NCBI GenBank assembly: GCA_963693365.1
Contig: CAVNZM010000024.1
Span: 1-64,000, forward strand
Source: Amoebidium appalachense
Lineage: Eukaryota; Protista; Ichthyosporea
Reading direction: 5' to 3'
Length of the DNA: 64,000 nt
The translations under genes were made by a program, and so were the position numbers. The notes beneath the pieces are model-generated. The model ran no database searches and was not told the DNA's origin. It worked only from the letters and a program-made list of their open reading frames with translations. This document shows positions 10,614 through 64,000 of this stretch, one piece after another (positions within the stretch are counted from its first letter, which is position 1; each line of letters starts with the position of its first letter).

Positions 10614-11002
10614 GAAGCTTCAAGTAAGAGTAGAGAGGCGAGGGGGCTATGTGAAATAACTAGACCACCCCCAACTATGTAGAATCTACACCTCCCTACC
10701 CTATGAGCGTAGTAAAGAAGAAGGGAGGAGGGGGCGAGCTCTTGATGGGCATGTTCAGGTTCTCTCTGTCGTGGTATAGGAGACACAAGGAGGACACACG
10801 GAAGAACTTTGTGGGGTACCCATTCCTGCTAGTGAAAATGGTGGAATTAGTGGGTGGTATGGACGCAGAGGTGGTGGCCAGGCTGGTGCCTGCCGTCAAA
10901 AGCAAGGTGACTAGAGTAAAGTGTGACAGGGTGTGGGTTCAGCTGGAGAGGGACCTTAAAAACTACCACATGCTTGTGGAATACAACATGTTCTGCCTGT
11001 AG
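10614..11002 (+). pseudogene. VLTF3: 5'-truncated, decayed VLTF3 (poxvirus A2-like late transcription factor) homolog
   Basis: ORF 10703-11002 reads LMGMF...RKNFVGYPFLLVKMVELVG...PAVKSK...DRVW, matching the VLTF3 C-terminal pattern L..MF...RKNF..Y...L.K..EL...P.LKS...D.IW. An upstream frame reads GYVK*LDHP, like GY.KYYEH.P. Confidence 0.6.
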
Positions 11003-11120
11003 CCTGGTGCTACTTGTACCTAAAGACAAGACAAGCCTTGTGCACAATACATTAGGGGTAGCAGGCGGTGGTAGGGGGGTGTGCCAGCACGTACCCACAC
11101 TACCGTCGACCCACTCAAGT

Positions 11121-11312
11121 TTATTTGAACACCACAGGTGCCGTGCGTATGGGACGGTTGGCGTTGATACCGGACAACGGTACGGTGTAGGCCAACGGAC
11201 GTTGCCGAAAGTCACGTATGGTGGAGACGTCCATAACGTTCAAGTTGTTGTTCTGCTCCGGAAAAATGAACGGCTTCTTGCGTATAGGGGGGCCGCCAAT
11301 GTTGAGCTCCAT
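11121..11312 (-). CDS. Small hypothetical protein (63 aa)
   Basis: ATG in CAACATGG context; co-oriented with the capsid cluster. Confidence 0.45.
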   Translation of the reverse strand: MELNIGGPPIRKKPFIFPEQNNNLNVMDVSTIRDFRQRPLAYTVPLSGINANRPIRTAPVVFK

Positions 11313-11628
11313 GTTGCTGCTGCTGCAGGGTGTTTACACAACCACACACAATATTTTAGAAGGTTTGGAAGGAGCTCTTGTCGGCAGCCACGGGCCAGGG
11401 TGTGTACGTGGCCGGCTTCGGTCTCATGGTCCCCCCTGGACCCTCAATGACGGTGTTTCCTGGTCCGTAGAACGGGCGGGTGTGGGGTACGGGTCCGGGG
11501 GCAGGCCGGGTGCGGTAGGGGGAGGGGTACGGGGAGGGGGACAAGCGTGTGTGGCAACGCATACATGCGCATGTGCTCCGTGTTGGGTGCCATGGTGGTG
11601 GTGGTGCCACTGTTGCCTGTGCCGTAGA

Positions 11629-13915
11629 TTATTTACCCTTCTTCTTGCCCTTCTTCTTGCCCTTCTTCTTCTTGTCCTTGTTCCACTCCGAGTCAACCAT
11701 GGGCACGGCGTTCGAGTTGCCGCCGGAGTGCCGGAGGGCGAACCGTGCCAGGTGCAGCCAGTAGTCAGGATTGGGGGCTTGGCTGCCTGTTGCCTGTGAA
11801 GGCAGGACTCGTGCGTGCGGGTGTCGTGTGTGGCTGGGCAGGTCGCCAGGCCCGTACTCGTCGTGCCGGGTGCTTGGCCTTGACCTTGGCCAGGGGGGAG
11901 GGACGGGGCCGGGCTTGGGGGGCCTTGTGGCCTTGGTCTTGGACGTGGTCTTGGTGTCGGCAAGGAGGCCGGTGACATTATTGACACCCTCGAGTATGGC
12001 TGTCATGTTGTAGCCCTTGCTCTTTGCATAGTCCTGCGCCAGCACCCAGCCGAGCATTTTCAGCTCACCCATAGTGTCCCTCTCCCCCAGTATGGCCTCG
12101 GCAAGGTTACCTCCACCGGCTATACCGGCAAAACCTTCCCCGCCGGGCACAAGCCTCCGGGCTGCGTTAGCAAAGACCGCCTTCACGTAGGGGTCAATGA
12201 TAGGGTTGTCCCACCCCGTCCCGTCCCCCGCCACCCGGCTCAGGAACTCCTCCGGGCTTTCCCCCCTTAGCTTAGCGAACCGTTCCCACGCCCGCTCCCA
12301 CAGGCCGGGTGTGCTCGGCGCCGTGACCCCATTCTTCTCCTTCACAGACAGGGCAGGGGACGTGGGGGGTCTCCACACGTCAGGGGTCCCTCCACCTACC
12401 GGAGAGACCGTCACAGGCTTCTTGGTCTTTGGGTACGACATGTCGCCGTCGTGGCCGATGGTGGCGAGTGCAGTGGTGGTGGTGGGACCCTCAATGCCGA
12501 GTGGCCGGGGTAGGTCCTCCCCTCCGCGTGCATGGTACTCAAGCATGGCCTGTTTCGAAGCCTTAGGCTCGTTCTTCTTGATTCCCCAGGCAAACAACTT
12601 GATGGTTTGGTACACGGGGTCGGTCAGCATCCATTTCCACAGGTCGGGGCTCTCTTCCTTCAAGCGCACCTCCCAGTCCCACATGGGTTTCTGGAACTCG
12701 AAATACTCGGTAAAATCTGGCAGCTTCCACACCGTGAGGCCTCTCTCCTCTTCGGGGGCCGGGGTGTGCCCTTCAGGGGGCTTGACGGGCACCAGGGGAA
12801 AGGCCTCGGCCCACATCTGGAGCGGATAGTTCCCCGAGCCCGACTGCTTGGACGGCTGCATGACGGCAGGGGGGTTGGGTCCACGGTAGGCGGGGGACTG
12901 GGGTAGGGGTCGGGGGCGTAGGGGTGGGAAGGCTATGGTGGGGCCGTGGGCAGGTGCTACAGGGGCCTCCACCTGCTTGCCGGCGGTGGAGGGGGGCCGG
13001 GAGCCAGGACGGGCGCTGCTGGTGCGTGTCACGGGCAGGCCGGGCCCGGCGGCCCTGCTGGGGGCTGGCCGTGACCGGTGGGCCACGGACTGGGGCATGA
13101 AGCCCTTTGCCGTCACGGGCGGCTTGGCAGGCAGGTGGGGTGCCACCGGGGTCTTTGGCGGTCCCCCAGGGTGCCAGCCGGGGGATGGGTAAGGTATGGG
13201 TGGGCCGTCGGGCTTGGCCGGTAGGTGGGGGGCCACCGGGGTCTTTGGCGGTCCCCCAGGGTGCCAGCCGGGGGGTGGGTAAGGTATGGGTGGGCCGTCG
13301 GGCTTGGCCGGTAGGTGGGGTGCAACTGGGGTCTTTGGCGGGCCCCCAGGGTGCCAGCCGGGGGGTGGGTAGGGTAGGGGGTGGCTTGGCCGGCAGGTGG
13401 GGTGCCGCAGGGGTCTTTGGCGGGCCCCCAGGGTGCCAATCGGGGGGTGGGTAGGGTATGGGTGGGGCTTGAGGTGGTGGGGGTGCCTGGGTAGGTGTGG
13501 GGAACGGTACGGGTACGGGTGCCACGTCGGGTAAGGGAGAAGGGGGAGGTCTGGGCCTGGTCCACACGTATGAGCTACCATACTTGTCCTTGAGGTGGGG
13601 GTAGTAGTCCATATAGTCTAGGTCCACCTTAACCACCTCCGGCAGATGCCCGCCCCACAACGACCCACCGTTACGGTCGGGGTCCATGTACTTGAGCTTG
13701 AGAAAGGCCTCGGGGCCCTCCCTTACGAGCTTACGGTAATCATCCGGGTGCAACCGCTGCTGCAAAGACCCAAACAAACCGACAGGGAGTGCACGCCACG
13801 TTTCCCCATCGTGCGGGTGCTTGTAGCTGACACGGTAATAGCCCACACGTTGTAACCAACCCAAATCCTTGTCCAAGTCGTCAGTGTGCCCATCTTGCTG
13901 CACGTGTGTGGTCAT
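11629..13915 (-). CDS. Large proline-rich protein (~760 aa) with 4 x 30-aa repeats and Lys-rich C-terminus; one frameshift near 13375-13382
   Basis: ORF 12773-13924 (CCACCATG at 13915) and ORF 11629-13581 share the repeat PIPYPPPGWHPGGPPKTPVAPHLPAKP and join at a G-run. Ends KDKKKKGKKKGKKKGK. Confidence 0.7.
13125..13465 (-). repeat. ~90-bp coding tandem repeat, 4 copies
   Basis: GGGGTCTTTGGCGG(T/G)CCCCCAGGGTGCCA recurs at ~13148, 13238, 13328, 13410. Confidence 0.9.
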
Positions 13916-13948
13916 GGTGGACACGGTGTTGTTGTAAAGTGGTGTTTA

Positions 13949-14329
13949 TTATTTGGAGAACCCGGCATACTGTGCCATGGGTTGTCTGGTAAAGCTGTTC
14001 TGGGGGTCACCACTACGACCCACCCTCACGGGCGTAAAGTCAAGGTAGTAGGCCTGGTTGTTGAACGGGAGACCCCGGCTGCCCAGACCACTCCTGCCCG
14101 GCATGGAGGGTAGGTGGTTGTCGGGGGGTAGGTTGTTGAAAGTCGGCAGCTCACGGAACGGTACACCGTACACCCCGGCCTGGAAGGTACCGTCACTGTC
14201 CGTGTGTCGTGCACGGTAGGGGGCTGCATAGGCAGCCTCATACTCGGCCTGTGGAGCTACCTTGTAGCCGTACACGGCAGCCTGGGCGGGTGTAGGTGCC
14301 CACGGTATGGAGGTTGTGTCGGTAGCCAT
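13949..14329 (-). CDS. Hypothetical protein (126 aa), possibly small virion protein
   Basis: Clean ORF directly downstream of MCP with AACATGG start. Confidence 0.65.
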   Translation of the reverse strand: MATDTTSIPWAPTPAQAAVYGYKVAPQAEYEAAYAAPYRARHTDSDGTFQAGVYGVPFRELPTFNNLPPDNHLPSMPGRSGLGSRGLPFNNQAYYLDFTPVRVGRSGDPQNSFTRQPMAQYAGFSK

Positions 14330-14383
14330 GTTTGTCGTGTGTCAGTGCTTGTTGTATGTAGCCAGACACAATTTAGCGTGACT

Positions 14384-16132
14384 CTAGGCCTCCACCGTCA
14401 CCTCACGGGCACCAGACAGCACAAGCACGTTCTCATGGTGAACAAACGTGTCAAGGGTCAGGTCGTCGTACTCGTTGGCTCTGGAGGTGCCGCTGGTGAA
14501 CTTCTCCGTGTTGAGGTGCAGCAGAATGGGGGTGGCATCGGAGCTGGTGTCGAGGCCAGAGTACAGGTCACGGTCCCTCTCCAGGTCAAGGGCAATCATG
14601 AACTGTTTATCCGGCCAGGCGGTGCTGTTGTACATGCAGTCGGCCGTGACGTCGCCCAAGAAGTACAGGGCCTTGGCCAACTCCGCCCATGCCTCGGCAC
14701 AGTTGTTTGAGGACACTCGAATCTCGTCGAGGGGCTTCTGGTAGGGTCCTATCTTGATCTGGTAACTGGTGATGTTGCTACGCGTGGACCTGAACGTCTC
14801 GCTGTTGGCCTGGGCCCAGTCGTTGCCACTCCTCACGAGGGACAACAGGGACTTGACGTTCCGCCCCCGGAACGAAATGTGCAGGTCGGCAGGACTACCC
14901 CCTTTGACGTAGCTCTGGAAATGGGTGAACGTGCTGTATGGAATATACACGTTCTTCTCCATCAGAGCCTTCTCAAAGCCGGCCGTGTACACGGCATTCC
15001 ACTCGATGATTTCACAGTGGAAGACGGGGTTGATAATTTCGTAGGACACGTCCTTCACCCATTCCCCGTTCTCGGTGGGCACGTACAGCACCTGGTTGGC
15101 CTCCCCGAGAGACAGTTCGATCTGTACCTCCCCCATGTAGGACAAGGGCAGGTACCTGCCGGAACGCATGAGGCCGAGCTTGAGCTGATGAATGTAGGTG
15201 AACCCGTCGGTGGCATCGATCTGGGCCTGCATGTTGGCCTGGTGGGGAGGCCACTTGGCCACCCTCTTGGTGTAGTCGAGGTACTTGCCGTCCGTAATGC
15301 GGTCCTTGCCGGGCACATTGCCGGCCTCGGCGGGTGTGGGCACCAGGGTCTCGTCGGCAAGGGGGGCTACGTCCTTGAGCTTTTCAATACCAAACAGCTT
15401 CTTGAGCGGGTCGGGGTTGAAGAGGGCGTATTTACTATCGACCGACGTATTCCACTTGTCAGCGTACTCCCAGTCGTCGTCCTGGGGCCCGTAGGTGCCG
15501 TGCATGCGGCCGGCAGGGCAGTTGCCGTAATCAGCCGACGACAGGAAGCGTTCAAGGTTGATCATGAGGTGGTTGTACCCAGAAATGTCCTCCACGGTAG
15601 TGCCGTTGATGGACACACGGGCACGGTCAAAGGGGGCAGCCGAGGAGCACAGGTGACCACCCATCATGGCCATACCCTCCAGGTTGCGGACCTTGAGAGG
15701 GAAAATGTCCTTACTGGCAACAGGCGTCGGATTGAGGGTGTCGGTTGCAAGCGTCGCGGGCTGGGGTACAGTGGTACCCTCATAGCTGACAGTGTCCGCA
15801 TCGCTGACAATGGGGTGGTCGAGCTGGCCGGGGAGGGGGAACTTGCGCATTCTCTCCACCTTGACACCCACGTTCTCGGGGGCGTTGGGGACGTTGGCCT
15901 TGAACTGGAACGTCATGTAGCTGTTGAGACAGTCCAGGAAGCCCACGGCAGGCAGGGAGAACCGAATCACACGCTGCCCCTTGGAGCTGTACGTCGAGCC
16001 GGTCACCGGGTAGGTCTTGACGGTCGACCGGCGGTTAATGTGGCTGAGCTCGACGGGCGAGTAGGTGCCGGCGTCCGTCAGCTTGTGGTAGGCCAGGTTG
16101 AGGGGCACGGAGGCGTCGTAGGGGGCTGCCAT
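14384..16132 (-). CDS. Major capsid protein, Polinton-like virus double-jelly-roll type (582 aa)
   Basis: PLV MCP-like motifs IRFSLPAVGFLDCLNSYMTF, VSINGTTVEDISGYN, GLMRSGRYLPLSYMGEVQIELSL, ITSYQIKIG, FMIALDLE; adjacent to packaging ATPase. Confidence 0.85.
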   Translation of the reverse strand: MAAPYDASVPLNLAYHKLTDAGTYSPVELSHINRRSTVKTYPVTGSTYSSKGQRVIRFSLPAVGFLDCLNSYMTFQFKANVPNAPENVGVKVERMRKFPLPGQLDHPIVSDADTVSYEGTTVPQPATLATDTLNPTPVASKDIFPLKVRNLEGMAMMGGHLCSSAAPFDRARVSINGTTVEDISGYNHLMINLERFLSSADYGNCPAGRMHGTYGPQDDDWEYADKWNTSVDSKYALFNPDPLKKLFGIEKLKDVAPLADETLVPTPAEAGNVPGKDRITDGKYLDYTKRVAKWPPHQANMQAQIDATDGFTYIHQLKLGLMRSGRYLPLSYMGEVQIELSLGEANQVLYVPTENGEWVKDVSYEIINPVFHCEIIEWNAVYTAGFEKALMEKNVYIPYSTFTHFQSYVKGGSPADLHISFRGRNVKSLLSLVRSGNDWAQANSETFRSTRSNITSYQIKIGPYQKPLDEIRVSSNNCAEAWAELAKALYFLGDVTADCMYNSTAWPDKQFMIALDLERDRDLYSGLDTSSDATPILLHLNTEKFTSGTSRANEYDDLTLDTFVHHENVLVLSGAREVTVEA

Positions 16133-16144
16133 GTTGCCGGTGTG

Positions 16145-16888
16145 TTACTCATGGTCGACATTTTTTTCACCCGTGCCGAGCACCACCTCCTCCTCAAAAT
16201 TGCGGAACATTCGGCCCTCATTCAGCCGGATGAACAAAAAATCGTGCTTGTCCCGGTAGACCGTGTCCATGAGCTCGAAAAACTGGGGGGTTTCGAGGGC
16301 CGGCAAGAACTCGTCCCTCAACACCTTGAGCTCGGTGTTGTTGGTGTTCTTAAAATAGACCAAGGCATCGGCCTGGCTACGCAGCTCGAGGGGGATCTTG
16401 TTCAATTTCTGCCCCACCATCATCACCGACACACCGATGTGTCGTCGGTTCTGTGCCATACGGACAAATTCACGGAGGTTGCCGGATTTTCTGAAAATGT
16501 GGGACATGTCGTCAAACACCAACAACATCCGGTAGTTGGGGTTAACCTTCTTGTGTTGGAGGGACAGTTTGAGGATCTCGGGGAGGAAGGTGACGTCCTG
16601 GTGCAGGCGGGCCTTGGGAATTTTCAGGGCCGTGCCGAGGGTGTGCATGCTCGGGCTGAAAATGTACACACGGTCAAACTGTTTATTGTAGAACTCGCCC
16701 TCCCGGGCAATGAGGTTGACGAGCAGGTTGGACTTGCCAGAACCAGGCTGGCCAATAAGCAAAAAGAAGAACACGTTGTCCATGAGGGGGTACGGTACGT
16801 TGAGTTTGGTGTCACACGTCATCGGAATGTGCTCCACCGACAGTGGTGCCGGCAGGGGGTTCACGGCTATGGGTGGGGCAGGGTGCAT
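16145..16888 (-). CDS. A32/FtsK-HerA-family genome packaging ATPase
   Basis: Walker A GQPGSGKS, VYIFSPS, Walker B LLVFDD, NRRHIGVS...Q...IP..LR motif. Confidence 0.9.
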   Translation of the reverse strand: MHPAPPIAVNPLPAPLSVEHIPMTCDTKLNVPYPLMDNVFFFLLIGQPGSGKSNLLVNLIAREGEFYNKQFDRVYIFSPSMHTLGTALKIPKARLHQDVTFLPEILKLSLQHKKVNPNYRMLLVFDDMSHIFRKSGNLREFVRMAQNRRHIGVSVMMVGQKLNKIPLELRSQADALVYFKNTNNTELKVLRDEFLPALETPQFFELMDTVYRDKHDFLFIRLNEGRMFRNFEEEVVLGTGEKNVDHE

Positions 16889-16916
16889 GGTGTCACTCAG
16901 TGTACGGTAGCTAAAA

Positions 16917-17153
16917 TTAATGACGGCAGCTGTCGATTTGCACGTTGTAGACGGTAAACTCGTCGAGGCACTTGAAGCTGCAGAGGTACATGGGCTCGTC
17001 CCCCAGCCACGTCATGGTGCACCCACAGTCAAAGTCATAGCCCTGCCCCTCCTCCTGGGTGGCACACCGGAACCAGTGCCCACAGAAGTCGCACGCGTGC
17101 TGCCACGGCTCGGCATCCGTGTCGGACACGCTCTTGGACATTGTAACGACCAT
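16917..17153 (-). CDS. Small Cys-rich putative zinc-binding protein
   Basis: CDFC...C...CGC...CSFKC pattern; AACATGG start. Confidence 0.55.
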   Translation of the reverse strand: MVVTMSKSVSDTDAEPWQHACDFCGHWFRCATQEEGQGYDFDCGCTMTWLGDEPMYLCSFKCLDEFTVYNVQIDSCRH

Positions 17154-17246
17154 GTTGGTTGACCGTGTTTGATAGTGGGTACACATTTTTTGGACGGGTG
17201 GACGTCCAACGTTGGAAAAAATGTGTCCCTACTGGTAACACCAACA

Positions 17247-17837
17247 ATGTCAACCGACGAGAACCAAATCGAACGCATGTCGGACAATGAGGCCGACCAA
17301 CCGGTGACCAAGGGGGCCACCAACACCGGTATGGGTGTGGAGCCCATGGTGCTGGAAGCAGGCAACGTGGCAAGGGCCAAACGGCAACCCACGGTACGGC
17401 AGCTGGAGGCCTTGGAGAAGGGTAGGAGCACACGTGTGGAACGCATGCGTAGGAACAAGGACTATATCCGTGAACTTGAGCAGAAGCTGCAGGTGCTGGA
17501 GACCCGCCCGACCGACCCCCCACCCCCAGCAGCAGCACCGGCACCCCCAAAGGCCCCCCGACCGAAGCAGAAGAAGGCCCCACGGAAACCCATGACAAGG
17601 GTGGCCTTTGAAGAGGAGGACAGCTACGAGGAGAGTGACGGGTATGACAACCCGTACAACCCCTACTTCGGGCAGTACTACATGCCCCCACCCCCGCCCC
17701 CGCCCCCTATGGGTGCACCGACACGTCACAGCATGCCCCACACGGGCTACGGCTCGTACCACACACAGGCAGCACAGGCGGCACCTCCCCCGCAGCGTAG
17801 TTACAGTGACCACATTGCCAACCTCATCTCATGGTGA
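17247..17837 (+). CDS. Hypothetical protein with basic helix and Pro-rich tail
   Basis: KRQPTVRQLEALEKGRSTR helix; ACAATG start; coding-like bias. Confidence 0.7.
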   Translation: MSTDENQIERMSDNEADQPVTKGATNTGMGVEPMVLEAGNVARAKRQPTVRQLEALEKGRSTRVERMRRNKDYIRELEQKLQVLETRPTDPPPPAAAPAPPKAPRPKQKKAPRKPMTRVAFEEEDSYEESDGYDNPYNPYFGQYYMPPPPPPPPMGAPTRHSMPHTGYGSYHTQAAQAAPPPQRSYSDHIANLISW

Positions 17838-17878
17838 AAAATTCGCACATACCACTAGTAGCTAGGCTACATGTAGGC

Positions 17879-18172
17879 ATGGCCACCCCGAAGAACATGA
17901 AGAACCTACCGTCGGCATACTCGTCACCCTTCACCTTTGACGACTACTTGCAGTTCTACATACGGCACGGTACCGACAAACCGTTTGACCCGGTCGGCAA
18001 CATGGAAGGGAAGAAGCCCGAAAACAAAATCGAGAAAAAGTTCCGGCAGCTGAAGAAGAAGGTGCCTGTGGACCGACAGGAGGAGTTGAGGAAGGTGCTG
18101 GAGTACGAAGCCCAGCTTGATGCACGCATGCTTGCCCACATACAGAAACAGGAGGGGGAGACCAATATCTAG
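17879..18172 (+). CDS. Hypothetical protein (~97 aa)
   Basis: Charged helical ORF with coding-like bias. Confidence 0.6.
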   Translation: MATPKNMKNLPSAYSSPFTFDDYLQFYIRHGTDKPFDPVGNMEGKKPENKIEKKFRQLKKKVPVDRQEELRKVLEYEAQLDARMLAHIQKQEGETNI

Positions 18173-18414
18173 GGGTACGACCGACCCCCACCCCGCCGGC
18201 CGGCCCGGAAGGACCTCTGCATGTAGCTGACGTTGCTGCCCACGTAGGCCAAGTTCTGGGCTGCACGGCTAATGTCCAACACGGTCCGGAACCTATCCCA
18301 GTGCTCGTTGGGGTGTACAATGACGGTGTGGTTGCGTGGTGCTGCCACCTGGTCCTGCCGGGGTGGTTGCCAGTACTCGGCCTCGTTGGTGTAACCCGTA
18401 CCTTGGAAATTCAT
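18169..18414 (-). CDS. Small hypothetical protein (~81 aa)
   Basis: CCACCATG start; downstream of minor capsid. Confidence 0.5.
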   Translation of the reverse strand: MNFQGTGYTNEAEYWQPPRQDQVAAPRNHTVIVHPNEHWDRFRTVLDISRAAQNLAYVGSNVSYMQRSFRAGRRGGGRSYP

Positions 18415-18455
18415 GGTGGTGGTGTATATTGGCTGGTGGTGAAAATATGCAACAC

Positions 18456-19514
18456 CTAGCCGAACCGTTGTGGCTTGCTCATGGGTCGGACAACCGTAGA
18501 CCCTGGGGGTCTGGGAATACGTCTCAGACACAATAAAAAGGTCACGTCACCTCTCATCCGTACAACGTTGCCGTAACAGCTCACCAGCCTCACTGTGAGT
18601 GAGTTGATGTGTGTGCTGACGTCGAGTGGTAGCTCGATGACTGCCCCGTTGTCAAAGAACGGGACGGTGATGTTGGGAAAGGTAGGAATGACGGCCAGCA
18701 CGTCCTTGCTGGGGTAGGAGGACTGAAACTTGACGTCGGCGTTGGCAACACTCACGGACGACTCGGCATTCACACCGTGAAGCTCAAGGAGGAAGTGGGT
18801 GGGGAAACACCCAACATTAGGAGCCACGTTCTCATCCCTGCCGGGCTTTGAGCTAACCAGGCCATCCCCCACGTTCATGCCGGCCGCGGCCGCCACTACC
18901 GGTGAGTCGAACCACATGAGGTACTGGGTGTCGGGTACACCGTTAACAAACTTAATCCGGCCGGTCTTCTCGTCGTACCTCAACTCCACCTCCCCGTCAG
19001 CAGGTTTGTCCGTGCCAAGTACGCTCGTAAGGTACCTATCAAGCAGGAACTGCAACCAATGCCCCATATACGACCCAAAGACGTTTTCGGTACTCTCCAA
19101 GTCTCGGGATAACTCGTTGCTGCTTCCACGGCCCACAAAGACACCCGTCGGGCTTACCCCTACCTCCCACAGAGGTATGGTATGCCAGGACTTCTTGCCA
19201 AGATTGGCTAGCAACTCGTCGGGTGTGGCCTCAAAGTACAGACGCTGGATGTCGGCGGGTGGGCCCCACCCCCCTCCCGGGGTCGGTAGCTGGCGGGCCA
19301 TGTTGACATAACACTCATCACGGGGGTACGGGTAGTAGTAGGTGGTGGGGGTGGTCATGGTGCTCACCCACTTGACCCCCAACGACGTGTTCTGCTGGAA
19401 GCCGATCGGGGGAGACAGCATGGCCTTCATTTCCACGGGGGCAGGGTCCTGCTGGCCTTGCACAAAGTCACCGACGTGTTGCATGACTACGAGGTGTGTT
19501 GGGGCCTGGTCCAT
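18456..19514 (-). CDS. Minor capsid (penton) protein, single-jelly-roll type
   Basis: N-terminal LSPPIGF...LGVKWV; C-terminal DVLAVIP...INSLTVRLVSCYGNVVRMRGDVTFLLCL, typical of Polinton/PLV pentons; CCACCATG start. Confidence 0.7.
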   Translation of the reverse strand: MDQAPTHLVVMQHVGDFVQGQQDPAPVEMKAMLSPPIGFQQNTSLGVKWVSTMTTPTTYYYPYPRDECYVNMARQLPTPGGGWGPPADIQRLYFEATPDELLANLGKKSWHTIPLWEVGVSPTGVFVGRGSSNELSRDLESTENVFGSYMGHWLQFLLDRYLTSVLGTDKPADGEVELRYDEKTGRIKFVNGVPDTQYLMWFDSPVVAAAAGMNVGDGLVSSKPGRDENVAPNVGCFPTHFLLELHGVNAESSVSVANADVKFQSSYPSKDVLAVIPTFPNITVPFFDNGAVIELPLDVSTHINSLTVRLVSCYGNVVRMRGDVTFLLCLRRIPRPPGSTVVRPMSKPQRFG

Positions 19515-19595
19515 GGTGGTAGAGGGCACATATACCGTTACAAAATGCCGTACAAAAATTCAGCGTCATGTAGTAACGTGCATGCTCTTGCAACC

Positions 19596-20950
19596 ATGCC
19601 CAGATCACTCAACTGGACCGTAGCCGACGGGCTTGCGCTCACGAACCGTCGAAAAGACGGCTACTACGTGGGACTGGTGGCCAACACAACAGGCCACACA
19701 CACGATGCATACGACCTGACGTTGCCGATAACCGGACCGGCCACATTTGCCTACATGGCATGTGACCCCAGCGGCAAAATGTCGTTTGTGGACGCTGCCG
19801 ACGTGCCCACCGATGCCACCGTGCAGGCACTGGGGGCCAGGGTGGCTGCCGTGGAGGGTGAAAACACCGTGCAGAACACCGACATTGCCGGACTCAGAAC
19901 CACGACAGGGACCTTGGGCACGAGACTGGCAGTTGTGGAAGACAAGGCCACCACAGCCCTCAACACAGCCAACGGTGCCGTGACAGTCAACAGCACCCAA
20001 AACACGGACATTGTCGGCCTCAAGACCACCACAGGGAACTTGGACATGCGGCTTACTGCCGTAGAGGGTAGGGTCACCACTACCCTAGATGTGGCCAACG
20101 GGGCCGTGACGGTCAACACCACACAGAACACGGACATTGCCGGCCTCAAGACCACCACAGGGAGCCTGGACACGAGGCTGACGGCAGTGGAGAGCAAGGC
20201 CACCACAGCCCTCAGCACGGCCAACGGTGCAGTGACGGTCAACACCACCCAGGGTACGGACATTGCCGGCCTCAAGACCACCACGGGGAGCCTGGACACG
20301 AGGCTGACGGCAGTGGAGAGCAAGGCCACCACTGCCCTCAACACGGCCAACGGTGCGGTGACGGTCAACACCACGCAGAACACGGACATTGCCAGTCTGA
20401 AGAGTACCACGGGTAGCACGACACTCGGCCTCGACGTCAACCGGCTCAACACGCTCGTCGGTCTCCACGACACGGCCGTGGCTACCCTGACCACAGACAT
20501 GGGTGCCATCAAACCCCGTACTGCCGTCGGCAGACGGCATAGAGGGCATGCTGCTCAGCAACAGGCTGGCCGTACGAGGGGGGGAGCCGGCGCACGGGCC
20601 CGGCCTACCTGACGGTGAAAGTACACCATGCTGCCGCCCAGGGGTGGAACGTTGCCGGAAAGGCTGCATGGGAGGACACGATCAGCATATACAGGTCAAC
20701 GTACGAGCCAGTCATTAAACCCCAGTGTATATCATCGCCGGGGGCCGAACTCATGGTGATTGTCTACTTCTGGACACTAGGGACCAACGGTGTGCGCAAG
20801 TATGTCACCCACGTGGGCTCCCTACCCATGTCGTGCGTGTCCCCGTGGGACATAAACAACATCTACCCGTTTGCGCTGGGCTCCGGCATGTTGGAGGGGG
20901 CCATTGTTCCCACAGGAACGGGACTGACTTTCGGTTCAAGCTCAAGGTAA
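19596..20950 (+). CDS. Fibre/spike protein with 42-aa coiled-coil stalk repeats; 3' part frameshifted (true end possibly ~21090-21145)
   Basis: QNTDIAGLKTTTGSLDTRLTAVESKATTALNTANGAVTVNTT repeats. Reading continues through ORFs 20503-20718 and 20615-20950 after shifts near 20515 and 20600. Confidence 0.7.
19872..20420 (+). repeat. 126-bp coding tandem repeat, ~4.4 copies
   Basis: Unit starts at 19872, 19998, 20124, 20250, 20376. Confidence 0.9.
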
Positions 20951-21190
20951 GGCTGACAAAGCTCTTCCAGACCGACACAGAGAGCTATGCAAGCGTTGCC
21001 GGCTACATCAAACTTTGACGTGCTGGTGTTGGCAAAGTACCCACGGTTTACCGACTATTCAAGGACAAGGCCAGCATTCCCCGCACCAACATAGTTACCC
21101 ACCCTCCCACCTTCTATGCAGACCTTCGAATGAACGAGGGGTAGCGGCCCGGGGTCAAAGGATTATTTCTAACACACTAGTAAACCCACC

Positions 21191-31650: not shown

Positions 31651-31779
31651 AACCTTCGCATTCCTTTGATCCGCACTTGTGTGCATGTACGCACCACATG
31701 TACGCGTACACGTACGCGTACACGTGTTCCGCCCTCTCTCTCTAATTATTTTAATATTTAATTAAAACCACGTGTTTAT

Positions 31780-31780
<1 letters not shown>

Positions 31781-31810: not shown

Positions 31811-31812
<2 letters not shown>

Positions 31813-38976: not shown

Positions 38977-38988
38977 AGTCTGACAAGT

Positions 38989-48382: not shown

Positions 48383-48410
48383 AGCAGTCGCACGGGCAGT
48401 GCCCGTCACA

Positions 48411-49586: not shown

Positions 49587-49988
49587 CTACTCGTCATCTA
49601 CAACGGACTCGGTTTCGATGTAGTTGTCCTTGTCGATGTGCTTTAGAGACTGCTTCGTGGCCACCTCCTCCTCGGGGACGGCGGAGAGAAATGCCAGGAG
49701 GTCGTTGGCCTGCTTGGTGTCCTTGAAGTACACCTCGAACTGCTTTCGCAGATAGTTCTCGCTCAGCGAGGGCTTCTTGACGGCCTCGTGGAGAATCAAC
49801 AGGTCCTTGGTGGGCAGTTCCAGTGACCGCACGTTCTCGGTGGACATATACTTGAGAATGGCCTTCTTTATCGTGTTCAGTTTTCGGCTGATGGGTTTGG
49901 TTTGTGCGCTCTGCTCCTTGAGCTGGGCGTGGAGCGTCGTGTAATCCCGGAGCACACCTTTCAGGCCGTCAATAGAGGATATTTCCAT
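49587..49988 (-). CDS. DUF5760-like NCLDV protein
   Basis: Pattern L...LK......K....K..I..YM...V..L.L....L......K..L....L....YF. Confidence 0.7.
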   Translation of the reverse strand: MEISSIDGLKGVLRDYTTLHAQLKEQSAQTKPISRKLNTIKKAILKYMSTENVRSLELPTKDLLILHEAVKKPSLSENYLRKQFEVYFKDTKQANDLLAFLSAVPEEEVATKQSLKHIDKDNYIETESVVDDE

Positions 49989-50050
49989 GCCAGGACGTCC
50001 CATTACCAGTGGAACAGAAAATAAATGGCAGCCCAAGATGCTACACATGT

Positions 50051-54028: not shown

Positions 54029-54714
54029 TCAGTTGACAAGCAGAAGCATAGCCAACTGCAGAATATCACTGACGACCCGGTACACAATAAAGTTGTCTGC
54101 ATATGGGTTGTACCGTAGCCACCTACATCCCAGTTGCTTGGTGATGTGGTTCTGGCGCTCTTCCTCATAGGTCGGATCGCGGTCATCATGATTGTGCTCG
54201 TCACACTCCACCACCAGGTTGAGTTCTGGAAAAAAAAGGTCCACTCGGTAGGGCTTGACATAGAACTGGGGCTTGCTTTTGAAACATGATGTGCACTGCC
54301 GTATGATGTTAATGGTCTCGCTCTCGGCCGATGTCTGCAGCAGTACTATAGGGAGGTCGGCCAAATCAAACACATGCATCCAGTATCGCTTCTTATCCAT
54401 GGACAGTTTGCAGCCTGGTATTAGAGCCTTCACGATCTCGCGAATTGTGTTGAGGGTAGCAAATGGTGTTGGCTTGCTCATTCCAGGTAAGCGCATGTTG
54501 ACCACACCCATTAGACGATCTTGATTGGTTAGCCCAGAACTGGCTTTCGTATGCCATTTTCCTTGACTCATACGTAGCCATGACTGGTGCGCTGCATTGC
54601 GATCTCCCAAGTACCAACGCCATGATGTCCAGAACGCTAACTTTGTTGGTAGCGGGGTCTGTTCGCACTGCTGGCATTCTTCAACACCGGAAATTGCTGT
54701 GTCAGGGTCTCCAT
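54029..54714 (-). pseudogene. Paralogous N-terminal domain fused to DUF559/Vsr-like endonuclease; two frameshifts
   Basis: METLTQQFPVLKNA / AVRTDPATNKVSVLDIMALVL parallels the 53680 gene; C-terminal YRVDLFFPELNLVVECDEHNH...RQNHI...WLRYNP. Confidence 0.75.
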
Positions 54715-54952: not shown

Positions 54953-56392
54953 ATGGACGACTACCTCGCCTTCGAAGACACCGCCGCCGGCCCGCACTTC
55001 GGCATCCCCTTCGTCCCCGACGCCTGCCTGGACCACGAGTGGACCCCGGAGCTCGCCGTCGCCTACCTGCGCAGCAATGTCGCCCACGTCAAGGGCTGCT
55101 CGACGTACATCCTCAAGCAGTGGTGCCAGGACAGGCTGAAGTACGAGCACCGCATCCTGGGCAAGCGCGACATGCAGGACACGCTCGCCAAGTTCCACTT
55201 CCCGCTGCTGGCCGACCGCCCCAACCAGCAGCCCGCCGCCCCCTACCGCGGCCGCGAATACCTCAACAGCCCGTACATCCTCATGTACGACCGGCTGGTG
55301 TTCGATCCCGCCAGCCCGGACCCGCGCACGGGGGTGTACAAGAAGTCCGCCGGGCCCTACCGCACGTTCAACCTGTTCACCGGGTTCCGGTTCACGCTGA
55401 GCAACATGCCCGTAGCCCGGCGTGACGAGCTGGTGGCGCCCTTCGTCTCGCACGCGCGCGACGTGCTGTGCGGTGGCGACCCCGGGCTTTTTGACTACCT
55501 GATGCTGTGGATGGGCCACCTGTTCCAGCACCCGGCGTCCAAGCCCGGCAGCGCGCTGCTGCTCGTGTCCAAGCAGGGCGCGGGGAAGAACATCTTCTTC
55601 CAGGCGCTCATCGACGCCATGGGGGTCGAGCACTCGGTGTACGTCAACCGGCGCGACCGCATCCAGAACCACTTCAATGCGCACCTGCAGAACAAGCTGC
55701 TGGTGGTGGTCGACGAGGTGCTGTTCAGCAACTCGCGTGAGGTCAACAACATCATGAAGTCGCTCATCACCGAGTCGTCCAACATCCTCGAGAAGAAGGG
55801 TCAGGATGCCGTGGCTGTGCGTGCGTGCGAGCGCTACGTGCTGCTGACCAACGAGAGCAACCCCGTGCTTGTCGAGCCCAGCGACCGCCGCTACGCGTGC
55901 ATGGCCGTCAGCAACGCGCGTGTCGGCGACACGGCCTACTTTGCCACGTTTCACCAACACCACAGAGACCCCGAGGTGCTGCAGGCCATCCACGACCTGC
56001 TCGTGTCCGTGCCCGACGTGCCGCCCGTGCTGCCGCCGCCGCCCGTGACCGACCTCAAGAAGGAGCTGCGTGGCGCCACGCTTGACGACAACGTGGCGTT
56101 CCTTCGTGACATCGCCACGGGCGCAGACGGCTGCGAGGACCTGGCCGTCGCCGACGGCGCTTACGTGACCACTTTCGGGCTGGCCGAGCGCATGCGCACG
56201 TGGGCCGCACGCAACGGCAAGGACCCCGCGGCCGTCAGTGTCAAGAAGCTGGGCGGCGTGCTCGGCAAGGTGTTTGGGCAGCGCGTCAAGAAGCAGCGGA
56301 GCGCGGTGGCGGTGGGGGGCGTGGAGGGCACGGATCCGGAGGAGTACGTGCACGTGTACGTGTTCGAACACGCGAAGGTGGCGGGGGCGTGA
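54953..56392 (+). CDS. SF3 helicase (DUF5906 / D5-like ATPase) with C-terminal winged-helix-like domain, no primase domain seen
   Basis: FNLFTGF, Walker A SKQGAGKN, FNAHLQNKLLVVVDE, motif C LTNE, SDRRY. Confidence 0.88.
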   Translation: MDDYLAFEDTAAGPHFGIPFVPDACLDHEWTPELAVAYLRSNVAHVKGCSTYILKQWCQDRLKYEHRILGKRDMQDTLAKFHFPLLADRPNQQPAAPYRGREYLNSPYILMYDRLVFDPASPDPRTGVYKKSAGPYRTFNLFTGFRFTLSNMPVARRDELVAPFVSHARDVLCGGDPGLFDYLMLWMGHLFQHPASKPGSALLLVSKQGAGKNIFFQALIDAMGVEHSVYVNRRDRIQNHFNAHLQNKLLVVVDEVLFSNSREVNNIMKSLITESSNILEKKGQDAVAVRACERYVLLTNESNPVLVEPSDRRYACMAVSNARVGDTAYFATFHQHHRDPEVLQAIHDLLVSVPDVPPVLPPPPVTDLKKELRGATLDDNVAFLRDIATGADGCEDLAVADGAYVTTFGLAERMRTWAARNGKDPAAVSVKKLGGVLGKVFGQRVKKQRSAVAVGGVEGTDPEEYVHVYVFEHAKVAGA

Positions 56393-59488: not shown

Positions 59489-60355
59489 TTGTTGCCGTGT
59501 GACGTAAAGGTCGATTTTGATAGTTTGTGGTACTTTATCTGTCGGTTCAACACCGTGATGTCTCAACTCAGCGAAGGGGCTGTTGTGCGCTGCCTCCACC
59601 TGGTGCGCACGTTTTTGGATAACGATAAGAGCAGCGCTTTGTTCATGCAGGGATACACAACGCACCACCTAGTGTTATACATCAAGCACCTGATGGAATT
59701 GGAAATAAACGAAAAGGTCCCAGTCGAACATATTGAGAGGCTGATCTCCTGCCCCGATGAAACGTCCGAACACACGCGCTCATCGAAGAAACTGAAAAAC
59801 GTCGTTATAGCAGTTCGCGAGCTGTTCCCCACACCGTGGGTTTGGAAGGGGATTGATCCAGGCACGTTTACGGTGGAGCTCGCTAGGGAGGTCCATCGCA
59901 AGGTCATGGACGGGCTGCTCGATAGCGCTGGACGGTATCGGGTGCGCTTTGCGCTTCCCGCAGGCTGCAGTCATCAGTACCTTGCACCGTTCAAGATCGA
60001 AGAGGCTCTCAAGCGTCTGTTCGAAAGGACACGCACCGAACTCCAAGGCTGCAATGACGTTCTCGGTGCCATACAGGTCACCGCCCGTTTCCTCGGGGAG
60101 TTCCTCTACATCCACCCGTTCAGCAACGGCAACGGGCGCGTCGCCCGTCTGTTGGTCAGCGTGCTGCTCTCGCCCTATATTGCCGTTCCCCTCTCGTTGT
60201 ACACAGACCGCAGCTCCCGCGAGCGCTACCACTCGCTGCTGCTGGCCGCGCAGAGCCAGCCGCCCCCCCACGACTACTCCGAGCTGGCGGCCTTCGTGCT
60301 GGACTGCGCAAGGGCAAACCTGGTCTCGGTGTGCAACGCCCTGGATTTGGAATGA
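59489..60355 (+). CDS. Fic/Doc-family AMPylase (start uncertain)
   Basis: Canonical HPFSNGNGRVAR motif; upstream EVHRKVM...AGRYR. Confidence 0.92.
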   Translation: MLPCDVKVDFDSLWYFICRFNTVMSQLSEGAVVRCLHLVRTFLDNDKSSALFMQGYTTHHLVLYIKHLMELEINEKVPVEHIERLISCPDETSEHTRSSKKLKNVVIAVRELFPTPWVWKGIDPGTFTVELAREVHRKVMDGLLDSAGRYRVRFALPAGCSHQYLAPFKIEEALKRLFERTRTELQGCNDVLGAIQVTARFLGEFLYIHPFSNGNGRVARLLVSVLLSPYIAVPLSLYTDRSSRERYHSLLLAAQSQPPPHDYSELAAFVLDCARANLVSVCNALDLE

Positions 60356-60387
60356 AGCCGTCAACTCTTATCGCGCCCTACATCAAC

Positions 60388-61263
60388 ATGGACACACCCT
60401 CCCAAGCCAGGACACGTGTGCGGATCCTGCTGCCCGGGGGCGGCGTCAAGGGCTGCTTCCAAGTCGGGTTCATGCAGGGGATGCTCGCGTCGGGGCTGTA
60501 CCAGGTCGACAGGGTGTACGGCACGTCCGTCGGCGCGCTGGTGGCGCCGTTCGTGGTTGCCGACCGCCTGGACGACCTGGCGCGCGAGCTGGGGAAGCTG
60601 AAGTGCGTGGAGGACATTGTGGAACCGTGGGGCGGCGCAATGGCGCTGCTTCCGAAAAGCTGGAGGACGGTTGTGGGGTCAATGCTGTACGGGGCGGCGT
60701 ACAGCCGCTTCACCCTGCAGGAGCGTGCGGCGGCGCTTCTGGAGGGCATCGACGCGGACATCTACACGCGCTGCCACTGCGTCGCCTGGGACTTCCTCAA
60801 CAAGAAGGAGCGGTGGTTCACAGGGCCCGAGTACCAGGTCGGCATGCGCGCGTCTTCGGCCCTTCCACTCGCGGTCCCCCCCGTCGAGTACGACGGCACC
60901 GTGTTTCTGGACGGCGGGGTCTCTGAGCTGGTGCCCCTCACCAAGGCACTCGAGGATGCCGCAGATGGGTTCGACGGCATCTACGTCACGGTGCTGTGCG
61001 ACTCGCTGGCGCACTGCCCCGCAGAATCCGTGCCAAAAACGGGCATGGAGCTCTGCTATGCTCTGCAGCGTGACTCGGGCACCGAGCTAGCGGCCACCGA
61101 GTTCGCCAACCTCCGCACCCGCCTCGGAGACCGCCTCGTGGTGGTCGCTCCGGAGCGGAGGCTGTTTGCGTCGCCCATGGACGTCGACCCCGGGAAGGTC
61201 GCGCAGGCGCTTGCGGATGGCCGCACGGCGTTTGCTGCCTGGGCCGCCGCGGCACGTCAATAA
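60388..61263 (+). CDS. Patatin-like phospholipase
   Basis: GGGVKG oxyanion loop, GTSVG nucleophile, ASSALP, DGG. Confidence 0.93.
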   Translation: MDTPSQARTRVRILLPGGGVKGCFQVGFMQGMLASGLYQVDRVYGTSVGALVAPFVVADRLDDLARELGKLKCVEDIVEPWGGAMALLPKSWRTVVGSMLYGAAYSRFTLQERAAALLEGIDADIYTRCHCVAWDFLNKKERWFTGPEYQVGMRASSALPLAVPPVEYDGTVFLDGGVSELVPLTKALEDAADGFDGIYVTVLCDSLAHCPAESVPKTGMELCYALQRDSGTELAATEFANLRTRLGDRLVVVAPERRLFASPMDVDPGKVAQALADGRTAFAAWAAAARQ

Positions 61264-62540: not shown

Positions 62541-63015
62541 TGTTGAACGTACGGCTGTGGGTAGACGTGTATCGCTGGTTACGGACACGGGTCTTGGGGT
62601 CGGGGTCGCTGGGGTCGAAAACAATACCACCGTCGTAGACGACCATTTGGCTGCTGTCCAGATGCCATGAGCCCTTGTATGTTTCCACCTTTTTGCCCGT
62701 CGGGTTGTATTTGAACTTGTACTTGGACAGCATGTCGGCCACCTTCTTCTTGGACTTGACCTCATGGACGAATCTCCCATCCTTGAAACGCTTGAAGAGG
62801 TACACACCGTCCGGGCGGGAATAAGCCACTAGTGTACGACAGAACGTGTGGATCTGCTCCTCGGTCCACTCGTAATTCTCGACAATGTCTGCGTCCAACC
62901 AGTTGTTGCGCGTGCCTGTTGTCCGCTCAAACTCTTCGTATGTCGCCAGTTTGCGCTGCTCGTTCTCGGACATGTCCGCGGCGATCTGCATGTATAGATC
63001 GTCCATGTTGTCCAT
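62515..63015 (-). pseudogene. N-terminal fragment of a DUF5906 helicase paralog, truncated before the ATPase domain
   Basis: VVYDGGIVFDPSDPDPKT...RTFNT aligns with LMYDRLVFDPASPDPRT...RTFNL of the 54953 gene, then runs into repeat copy 3. Confidence 0.7.
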
Positions 63016-63093
63016 TGTAGAAAGAATGGGGAGAAAATGAACCCGGGTCTGCTTAAGTACCCCCCCCCCCCTATAGCTAGCATCTGTTGGTTC

Positions 63094-63230
63094 CTGAGGG
63101 GCTGTGAGGGGCATGCGTGGCTCGCCTGCCTCGTGCTGCCCGTGAGACCACTGTGCCTCCTCTTCCTCCCCGGCCCCATGCCCTGTGTGCCACCCCCAGC
63201 CACCCCCAGCCCCCCATGCCCCCGCGCAGC
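63094..63230. repeat. GC-rich intergenic repeat, copy 4
   Basis: CTGAGGGGCTGTGAGGGG, CCCGTGAGACCACTGTGCC (identical to copy 1), CACCCCCAGC x2. Confidence 0.7.
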
Positions 63231-63242
63231 GTTGGGGAATGG

Positions 63243-64000
63243 CTAGGCCTGTTTGATCTTCTCGTAGTCGAACAAAAAAGCGTACGACGTTCCGGTTGGG
63301 GACAACGCGGGCATCCCAGGGGCAACAATCAGGTGGTTGTTTCGCACTCCCTTGTTGGGTCCAAGTATCTTGCTGAGCATGGAGCCCATGCTCTTCACAC
63401 TGGCGTACGGGATGCTCTTGGTCTTGCCGTTGAGTGAAAGCCACTCCTTGTACAGATGCAGCATTGTGGTGGCTGTAACACGGGCCCCATTGGGAAGTTG
63501 CTCGACAGACATGCCCTCGGCGCCTGTAGCCATATCTTTGAGAAACAGGAGTTCATCTGGCTGTGTCATTTCACGCAGTTCGCACCAGAGTTCAGTCTTG
63601 GGTGGAAGCGGAAGAACACGGGGAACATTTGGCATCTTCATGAAGTAGTCACAGACAGCCTGTAGGTTTGCAGGGTCTTCGTAAAACCGTGTAAAGTTCT
63701 GGTAGTAGGCTCTTGGATAGACCACTGGGGTCCCCTGCAAGCACACCCAACGACGGTCCGATTCCTCCACCCGAACGGGCCATTTCTCGTTTGAAAGCCA
63801 GACATAGCGTTCGAAACTCTTCACACACACAGCGTCCTGCCCCTTTCGCTCGATCATGTTCACCTGCTGGGTGATGCGAGCCTTCATCAGGTTCGCAATT
63901 TCCCTGTTACTGCCAAGACCCATTTCGTCGCACACAACCAGTAGCTTGTTCTCCAGATGCGCGTTGAACTTCCCCTCCAAATGCTCTCTGTGTGTGATAT
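63243..64000 (-). CDS. Second DUF5906 SF3 helicase, 5' part beyond the window
   Basis: FNAHLENKLLVVCDE, LSNE, SDRRW; frame open to the window edge. Confidence 0.85.
   Translation of the reverse strand, partial: ITHREHLEGKFNAHLENKLLVVCDEMGLGSNREIANLMKARITQQVNMIERKGQDAVCVKSFERYVWLSNEKWPVRVEESDRRWVCLQGTPVVYPRAYYQNFTRFYEDPANLQAVCDYFMKMPNVPRVLPLPPKTELWCELREMTQPDELLFLKDMATGAEGMSVEQLPNGARVTATTMLHLYKEWLSLNGKTKSIPYASVKSMGSMLSKILGPNKGVRNNHLIVAPGMPALSPTGTSYAFLFDYEKIKQA

What the first reader, a model, noticed from the sequence alone, without database searches (positions are those of the whole stretch)
10614..64000. Polinton-like virus capsid/integrase module joined to a giant-virus gene region: possible nested virus or hybrid virus
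Seen: a PLV-type morphogenesis set (MCP, penton, A32-like ATPase, fibres) with an intact rve integrase at 11-28 kb. It is followed without obvious host sequence by PCNA, RFC-like, P11-like, YqaJ, DUF5760 and Bro/DUF559 genes. Known: those latter families are typical of Nucleocytoviricota, and virophages and some PLVs parasitise and can integrate into giant viruses. Seen: no pPolB, helicase or maturation protease is recognisable between the VLTF3 remnant and 28 kb. Inference: either a replication-gene-free satellite PLV integrated in an endogenised giant virus, or a mid-sized virus pairing a PLV capsid with NCLDV-like replication accessories.
Basis: partly seen in the sequence, partly recalled or inferred. 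Interest (0 to 1): 0.85.

Follow-up and report, generated by a model that had tools for sequence, protein, structure and literature searches.

The report
Small virus nested in giant-virus relic
This stretch holds two different viral elements joined at one exact base: the end of a multi-copy Polinton-like virus sits inside a gene of what is likely an endogenous giant virus, so it is most likely a small virus that inserted into a giant-virus relic and not a new hybrid virus.

Summary
The genes are real but belong to two elements. Window 10,614-31,994 is a Polinton-like virus (PLV): double jelly-roll capsid protein, A32 ATPase, DDE integrase, Dam methylase, partial VLTF3. Window 31,995-64,000 is a giant-virus-like gene block (PCNA, YqaJ, patatin, Fic, helicase pieces) with no hallmark gene in view. 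The boundary is 31,994|31,995, not 28 kb. In 4 of 6 runs laid, contigs carry the right block uninterrupted and leave the window leftwards at 31,995. In one run, two other PLV copies end at 31,994-31,995 and run into other flanks. Base composition changes there too, and the junction cuts the tail of an IS630-like transposase gene. The hybrid-virus reading is refuted. The 'replication-gene-free satellite' reading is unsupported, because an AT-rich TIR element cuts the left arm at the window's edge. The PLV gene set matches the roughly 30-kb VLTF3/Dam/PolB 'adintoviruses' described beside many endogenous giant viruses in Amoebidium; the host here is not established. No listed contig bridges the window's own junction, and the left flank is unseen. 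One nested case is about what chance would give in such a genome.

The parts
3..10613 (.). AT-rich (33% GC) TIR element full of tandem repeats, with no long ORF; cuts the PLV's left arm (inferred)
   Evidence: 58-nt inverted arms 3-60 / 10,556-10,613, 93% complementary; longest stop-to-stop frame 138 aa; GC
10614..31994 (.). Polinton-like virus, visible part 21,381 nt; left end missing, right end at 31,994
10703..11002 (+). VLTF3-like remnant, C-terminal part only
   Evidence: Pfam PF04947 E 0.003, positions 98-164 of 168
14384..16132 (-). Double jelly-roll major capsid protein, 582 aa
16145..16888 (-). A32-like packaging ATPase
   Evidence: Pfam PF04665 E 1e-9; homologues; tree
18456..19514 (-). 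Probable penton (minor capsid protein)
   Evidence: weak: top of 399 ORFs at E 0.31
19545..20612 (+). Repeat protein, fibre-like (inferred)
   Evidence: 126-nt period repeat; no specific family
24779..26098 (+). DDE integrase of retroviral/IS481 type, unbroken ORF
   Evidence: NCBIfam IS481 E 6e-11; PHROG transposase E 7e-5; Pfam rve_3 E 0.014
26462..27007 (+). Dam-type adenine methyltransferase
   Evidence: Pfam PF05869 E 1e-15
28096..31643 (.). PLV right arm: two unknown ORFs (28,244-29,326 +; 30,376-31,293 -), four copies of a 13-nt CCAAT-box motif, (TG)n and (CA)n tracts
   Evidence: 4 matches against 0.07 expected (the motif was picked by eye from this region)
31918..31987 (.). 70-nt hairpin 7 nt inside the PLV end
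   Evidence: -33.5 kcal/mol, z -10, 0 of 200 shuffles as stable
31994..31995 (.). Junction between the PLV end and the giant-virus-like block
   Evidence: best composition change point 31,964
31985..35563 (-). Run of four ORFs that read like one long broken gene with an IS630-like DDE domain; its tail is cut by the PLV end, which supplies the stop codon
   Evidence: NCBIfam IS630 E 8e-12; Pfam DDE_3 E 3e-6; frames
35583..36368 (-). Divergent PCNA
   Evidence: Pfam; best single-ring cellular PCNA only 83 bits; 12 unnamed homologues at 44-49%
38989..44660 (.). Three paralogous proteins (533-794 aa), one with a weak lectin-like match
   Evidence: Pfam lectin E 3e-4 for 40,651-42,252; self-similarity
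45092..46051 (+). AAA-like protein; RFC label unconfirmed
   Evidence: PDB AAA match E 0.008
47672..48382 (+). Trypsin-like protease
   Evidence: Pfam PF13365 E 2e-13
48366..49088 (+). YqaJ / lambda-exonuclease family nuclease
   Evidence: Pfam E 1e-21; TIGR03033 above cut-off
49587..50048 (-). DUF5760-like protein
   Evidence: Pfam E 1e-3, under cut-off
54029..54571 (-). DUF559 nuclease-like protein
   Evidence: Pfam E 1e-4
54953..56392 (+). DUF5906 helicase; paralogous pieces at 62,515-63,114 (-) and 63,243-64,000 (-)
   Evidence: Pfam E 3e-19; paralogy E 3e-15
59558..61263 (+). Fic-domain protein and patatin-like phospholipase
   Evidence: Pfam E 2e-14 and 2e-18

Best explanation
A multi-copy Polinton-like virus likely integrated, through its own DDE integrase, into a transposase-like gene of a likely endogenous giant virus, and an AT-rich TIR element likely cut its left arm later. 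Shown: the right end of the PLV family lies at 31,994, the uninterrupted giant-virus-like allele exists without it, and the junction falls in the last codons of an ORF. Inferred: that the PLV integrase made the junction; that giant-virus DNA resumes beyond the PLV's unseen left end; that a polymerase gene lies in the missing 8-9 kb or so; that the host is an ichthyosporean-like protist. Whether the insertion happened in the host chromosome or in a replicating giant-virus genome is open; chance insertion in the chromosome is the simpler case.
For: (1) Uninterrupted allele in 4 of 6 runs laid (3 coded samples): X3 contig of 2,092 nt (depth 82) and X18 contig of 1,084 nt match from 31,995 rightwards with 1 differing letter each and leave leftwards; X1 contig of 2,897 nt (depth 51, 2,064 nt beyond the junction) and X20 contig of 174 nt do the same. 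(2) PLV end: X6 contigs of 626 nt and 158 nt match up to 31,994 and 31,995 and go on for 528 and 20 unlike letters; a 10-letter loose end in X2 stops on the same six letters that end the left block. (3) X3 depth is about 4-29 in bins left of the junction and 59-111 right of it; X18 covers little of the PLV side but holds near-identical pieces of the right side. (4) Best dinucleotide change point 31,964, plateau 31.36-31.96 kb; CpG o/e 0.69 against 0.95, per-kb medians 0.74 (n=20) and 0.96 (n=32), p 1e-7. (5) The stop codon and last two codons of ORF 31,985-32,575 come from the left block. (6) 35 of 51 loci fetched by ATPase similarity carry the same MCP family; of the first 46, none matched PCNA, YqaJ or other right-block genes except the DUF5906 helicase. 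L002, in the same ATPase group as the window (support 92, quick tree), carries a full VLTF3. (7) VLTF3 + Dam + mCP + MCP + PolB elements of about 30 kb with terminal repeats are described beside 90 chromosomal GEVEs in Amoebidium (PMC11244446); the only named MCP homologue is from the ichthyosporean Sphaeroforma arctica.
Against: No listed contig bridges the window's own junction (170 piece rows and 17 loose-end rows not shown). At 31,930 all contigs laid in X2 (5) and X6 (2) differ from the window, so its own copy of the hairpin was not seen. The listed rows of X2 and X6 do not show the uninterrupted allele. The PLV-end evidence with flanks comes from one run. The left end, left flank and target-site duplication are outside the window, and no reads were laid on the 10,613 junction. 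The right block shows no Nucleocytoviricota hallmark gene, so 'giant virus' rests on accessory genes. No named relative was found for PCNA or YqaJ. Related PLV contigs are distant (ATPase 39% identity or less).
Confidence: 0.7

Rival explanations
1. Secondary juxtaposition: the PLV inserted nearby, and a deletion or rearrangement that stopped at its end joined it to the middle of a giant-virus fragment, so the left flank is not giant-virus DNA.
For: The left flank is unseen; GEVEs are described as fragmented and chimeric (PMC12210455 passages; PMC11244446).
Against: The junction sits exactly at the family's end, which is what plain integration gives with no extra event.
Confidence: 0.15
2. Misassembly of two repeat families.
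For: Both blocks are multi-copy; no listed contig bridges the junction; single-letter differences between window and contigs suggest an unpolished assembly.
Against: There is no shared sequence at the junction, and it joins the exact element end to a mid-gene position, which assembly errors have no reason to pick.
Confidence: 0.07
3. One mid-sized hybrid virus with a PLV capsid and NCLDV-like replication accessories.
For: The blocks are adjacent with no host DNA; small viruses with NCLDV-like genes exist (Mriyaviruses and related clusters, 10.64898/2026.06.19.733378); DUF5906 helicases occur in PLV relatives.
Against: Each block occurs without the other; composition differs; the junction breaks a gene; 0 of 46 related contigs match PCNA or YqaJ.
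Confidence: 0.03
4. The PLV family itself lacks a polymerase and is a helper-dependent satellite (compatible with nesting).
For: No replication gene among the 19 ORFs scanned in the visible 21.4 kb; replication-gene-free 15-20 kb elements are described (VC40).
Against: The visible part is truncated; the most similar described elements carry PolB; relatives on long contigs usually carry a primase-helicase or SF1 helicase.
Confidence: 0.12

Closest known systems
Amoebidium 'adintoviruses' (Sarre et al. 2024, PMC11244446; sections 7 and 10 and supplement legends read, figures not seen)
   Same: VLTF3, Dam methyltransferase, major and minor capsid genes; multi-copy, diverged, some truncated; same genome holds many GEVEs with PCNA.
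   Different: PolB and the second terminal repeat are not visible here; host not established; the text read does not describe an adintovirus inside a GEVE (its example is flanked by host genes).
Amoebidium GEVEs, related to Mamonoviridae (Medusavirus) (PMC11244446)
   Same: Gene-dense, intron-poor blocks in many copies, enriched for PCNA and integrases, none with a full core gene set, with secondary insertions.
   Different: No MCP, A32, VLTF3 or full D5 marker in the right block, so the lineage could not be tested.
Sputnik 2 provirophage in Lentille virus (review PMC6723459, passages read)
   Same: A small DJR virus integrated in giant-virus DNA.
   Different: That is a virophage in a replicating mimivirus; here a PLV in endogenous giant-virus-like DNA, with no evidence of helper dependence.
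Mavirus/EMALEs in Cafeteria (PMC8547959) and Tetraselmis PLVs (10.1101/2025.10.09.676808), passages read
   Same: Integrated multi-copy elements with terminal repeats; EMALEs insert without sequence specificity, often in genes; VLTF3 is named in a Tetraselmis PLV figure legend.
   Different: They lie in host DNA and were shown to be reactivated by a giant virus; not tested here.
Mriyaviruses and Zora/Zephyr clusters (10.64898/2026.06.19.733378, parts 1-4 of 5 read)
   Same: PLV-sized viruses with some NCLDV genes such as VLTF3; VLTF3 in about 30% of VC123/VC126.
   Different: They are single genomes; here two elements; no HUH or VLTF2 family hit; the paper's MCP profiles were not available to place this MCP.

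Membership tests
Polinton-like virus / Maverick-Polinton | Double jelly-roll MCP | tested here: met
Polinton-like virus / Maverick-Polinton | A32-like packaging ATPase | tested here: met
Polinton-like virus / Maverick-Polinton | Single jelly-roll penton | tested here: inconclusive
   top of 399 ORFs but E 0.31; pairwise E 1.5
Polinton-like virus / Maverick-Polinton | rve integrase or tyrosine recombinase | tested here: met
   DDE integrase ORF; IS481 E 6e-11, rve_3 E 0.014; both under curated cut-offs
Polinton-like virus / Maverick-Polinton | Defined end shared by copies in different flanks | tested here: met
   two X6 contigs and one X2 loose end
Polinton-like virus / Maverick-Polinton | Paired terminal inverted repeats and target-site duplication | not testable with these tools
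   left end outside the window; no inverted copy inside it; no genome held
Polintoviricetes (Maverick-Polinton, adintovirus) | Protein-primed PolB and adenain-type protease | tested here: inconclusive
   no hit among the 19 ORFs scanned in the visible 21.4 kb; left arm missing
Amoebidium-type adintovirus | VLTF3 plus Dam in a capsid-coding element | tested here: met
   Dam E 1e-15; VLTF3 partial, E 0.003
Amoebidium-type adintovirus | Host is Amoebidium; sequence falls in a described clade | not tested
   no named sequence was on hand; host inferred only and the gene set
Giant endogenous viral element (Nucleocytoviricota) | Hallmark genes (NCLDV MCP, PolB, A32, VLTF3, full D5, RNA polymerase) | tested here: inconclusive
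   none among the 31 ORFs scanned in 32-64 kb; the block runs off the window and also continues 2 kb or more leftwards in uninterrupted alleles
Giant endogenous viral element (Nucleocytoviricota) | Dense intron-poor block of NCLDV accessory genes | tested here: met
   PCNA, YqaJ, patatin, listed among conserved Mimiviridae genes (PMC3620924); PCNA far from cellular PCNAs
Mriyavirus | HUH Rep endonuclease, VLTF2, NCLDV-like MCP in one 35-45 kb genome | tested here: not met
   no Pfam hit for these, no Capsid_NCLDV hit; two separate elements
Virophage (Virophaviricetes) | Virophage-type MCP and cysteine protease | tested here: inconclusive
   no Pfam virophage MCP hit; Sputnik ranks 41; left arm missing
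Virophage lifestyle | Replication depends on a co-infecting giant virus | not testable with these tools
   needs culture work

The most novel reading that the evidence does not exclude
The PLV is a provirophage that targets the genome of a still-active giant virus of this host. The uninterrupted giant-virus allele is present as abundant near-identical DNA in some runs, the PLV carries a captured late transcription factor (VLTF3), and the window records a virus-in-virus unit that was endogenised whole.
Probability: 0.15. Interest if true: 0.75.

Novelty: new member of a known kind. Interest (0 to 1): 0.4.

Why it matters
It removes a candidate 'hybrid virus' and shows how such chimeras arise in assemblies of virus-rich protist genomes. 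It also gives a base-exact, dated-in-order junction (giant-virus allele first, PLV second) that makes one open question testable: whether VLTF3-bearing PLVs insert into endogenous giant-virus DNA more often than chance, as a virophage lifestyle would predict. A single case does not answer it: with the published Amoebidium figures (44 elements; all giant repeats 3.1% of the DNA) up to about 1.4 such cases are expected by chance (my arithmetic, conditional on that host).

Tried and rejected
No whole genome held, so flanks and other copies could not be read directly. Single-sequence fold of the MCP failed (pLDDT 30). PDB sequence searches found nothing for MCP, integrase or ORF 30,376-31,293. IMG/VR scans with MCP, PCNA, ATPase, the PCNA alignment and YqaJ gave no locus; the MCP alignment had no usable pattern. 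None of 10 window proteins is in the protein collection by exact sequence. The metagenome scan gave 5 short loci and not the 22.6-kb contig of P0006. The VLTF3 of L002 did not match the window's remnant by tblastn. No RNA holder listed, so nothing on expression. Earlier findings: 4 look-ups, all empty. Joints 37,333/4 to 23,516-24,501 were set aside as likely C-rich low-complexity matches, not tested. The inverted (TG)n/(CA)n tracts at 29.6 and 31.8 kb were considered as ends of a separate insert and rejected: plain microsatellites, and a shared CCAAT motif runs across the left one. A Helitron-like reading of the terminal hairpin was considered from memory and not tested. The ATPase tree is the quick tree with unnamed rows, so it does not assign a class. 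Contig depths are quoted as printed; the tool says they are not copy numbers.


Full report
What is in the sequence. The window has three parts. Bases 3-10,613 are an AT-rich element (33% GC) with 58-nt inverted ends and no long ORF. Bases 10,614-31,994 hold a PLV gene set; bases 31,995-64,000 hold giant-virus-type accessory genes. Of 50 ORFs scanned against Pfam, the left block gave a partial VLTF3, an A32 ATPase and a Dam methylase; the right block gave DDE_3, PCNA, a trypsin-like protease, YqaJ, DUF5760 (weak), DUF559, DUF5906 twice, Fic and patatin. The 582-aa ORF next to the ATPase had no Pfam or PDB sequence match. It has 298 relatives at E 0.001 or better. With 127 of the 150 listed, chosen by length, it folds at pLDDT 79 and matches iridovirus and chlorovirus double jelly-roll capsids at E 1e-13 and about 10% identity. 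The atlas places it at 0.97 among clusters that are mostly Preplasmiviricota or carry DJR families. Its only named homologue is from Sphaeroforma arctica, 29% identical, a species in which PLV MCPs were reported (PMC7805220 passage). The integrase ORF is unbroken and matches IS481-type DDE profiles. The penton is only weakly supported. The P11, RFC and Bro labels were not confirmed.

Where the boundary lies. Of 24 runs listed for 24.0-33.9 kb, I laid 6: X2, X6, X18, X3 on 20,001-39,900 and X2, X6, X1, X20 on 31,830-32,200. Both blocks are multi-copy with diverged variants in X2, X6 and X3. In X1, X3, X18 and X20, a contig matches the window from exactly 31,995 rightwards with one differing letter and continues leftwards in unlike sequence, for 2,064, 1,256, 107 and 104 letters. 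The listed rows of X2 and X6 do not show this form; their tables are cut. In X6, two contigs match the left block up to 31,994 and 31,995 and continue rightwards in unlike sequence (528 and 20 letters), and a loose end in X2 stops on the same six letters that end the left block. So 31,994 is the end of the PLV family and 31,995 is a mid-gene position of an allele that exists without the PLV. An independent test agrees: the best dinucleotide change point in 10.6-64 kb is 31,964, and CpG o/e is 0.69 on the left and 0.95 on the right. The junction lies in the third codon before the stop of ORF 31,985-32,575, the tail of a broken run of ORFs with an IS630-like domain. A 70-nt hairpin lies just inside the PLV end. 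Against this reading: no listed contig bridges the window's own junction, and all contigs laid over 31,930 differ from the window there.

The left end. No inverted copy of the PLV end lies in the window. The VLTF3 remnant starts 90 nt after the AT-rich element and matches only the last two-fifths of the profile, so that element likely cut the PLV. I did not lay reads on this junction, and no genome is held. The lack of a polymerase in 21.4 kb therefore says little. VLTF3 probably belongs to the PLV: L002, in the same ATPase group (support 92, quick tree of 67 unnamed rows) and with the same MCP family, carries a full VLTF3.

How it most likely works. The PLV would package its DNA with the ATPase into an MCP/penton capsid and integrate with its DDE integrase (inferred from gene content and from known Polinton and mavirus biology). 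One copy landed in a transposase-like gene of an endogenous giant-virus block, and a host TIR element later landed in its VLTF3 gene. The order giant virus first, PLV second follows from the uninterrupted alleles, which are near-identical across three coded samples. The right block is called giant-virus-like on accessory genes only: PCNA, YqaJ and patatin are conserved Mimiviridae genes (PMC3620924 passages), and the PCNA is far from cellular ones and 44-49% identical to 12 unnamed proteins. No hallmark gene is in view.

Comparison with what is known. Sarre et al. (PMC11244446; passages, sections 7 and 10, supplement legends, figures not seen, tables searched for four terms only) describe in Amoebidium 44 'adintoviruses' of about 30 kb with VLTF3, Dam, two capsid genes, PolB and terminal repeats, beside 90 chromosomal and 42 unplaced Medusavirus-related GEVEs. 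The left block matches that gene set; I did not establish the host. Their figures, which I could not see, may already show nested cases. A small virus in giant-virus DNA is known from Sputnik 2 (PMC6723459 passages). EMALEs insert without sequence specificity (PMC8547959 passages). Chimeric endogenous viral regions are described in Acanthamoeba (PMC12210455 passages). Bellas and Sommaruga (10.64898/2026.06.19.733378, parts 1-4 of 5) describe PLV-sized viruses with NCLDV genes, including VLTF3, but as single genomes. Other passages read: PMC10120064, PMC12220804, PMC12455990, 10.1101/2024.09.03.611062, 10.1101/2025.10.09.676808. Eight literature searches showed no paper, in the listings and passages I saw, that describes a PLV inserted in a GEVE; the library lacks most subscription papers.

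Verdict. Nested insertion 0.70, secondary juxtaposition 0.15, misassembly 0.07, hybrid virus 0.03; separately, a polymerase-free PLV family 0.12. Both kinds of element are known, probably even in this host lineage, and one nested case is within chance for a genome with tens of each. Interest 0.4. The bold reading, a provirophage of a still-active giant virus endogenised as a unit, is not excluded (0.15).

Noticed in passing
window 31,985-35,563 (-): Four ORFs read like one gene of over 1,100 codons with an IS630-like DDE domain in the middle. Contigs in X3, X18 and part of X2 differ from the window by single-letter indels in this interval, so the breaks may be assembly errors. IS630-superfamily integrases are reported in the Chlamydomonas GEVE (10.1101/2024.09.03.611062).
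   Followed up: partly
window 31,995-39,900: In two very small runs (X1, X3; about 1 million letters of contigs each) the right block assembles as long near-identical contigs at depth 51-92, several times the PLV side in X3. Unexplained: many recent copies, an episome, or enrichment in the library.
   Followed up: partly
window 3-10,613: 10.6-kb AT-rich element with 58-nt terminal inverted repeats that begin with TG and end with CA, a second inverted pair at 449-490 / 10,410-10,451 and many tandem repeats; no ORF over 138 aa. It starts at the third base of the window.
   Followed up: partly
window 37,341-37,565 and 59,240-59,463: A 225-nt intergenic segment present twice in inverted orientation, 72% identical; possibly a small mobile element or a repeated regulatory module.
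   Followed up: no
window 54,953-64,000: Three paralogous DUF5906 helicase genes or pieces, with a GC-rich 9-nt-period repeat at 59.2, 61.3, 62.4 and 63.1 kb; may be a duplicated cassette.
   Followed up: partly
window 31,918-31,987: The terminal hairpin holds two TGACGTCA palindromes (CRE/ATF-type motif, name recalled), and the right arm has four CCAAT boxes; this hints at host-polymerase promoters in the PLV arm.
   Followed up: partly
window 11,424-13,915 (-): Overlapping proline-rich ORFs with a 90-nt tandem repeat at 13,121-13,472; probably one frameshifted PLV gene.
   Followed up: no
L002:2,641-3,288: An IMG/VR contig of 12.4 kb with the same MCP family carries a full VLTF3 with zinc ribbon: VLTF3-bearing PLVs of this group also occur in metagenomes.
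   Followed up: partly
L004:13,778-14,617: Telomere resolvase (ResT/TelK) domain, E 5e-10, on a 21-kb contig found by ATPase similarity.
   Followed up: no
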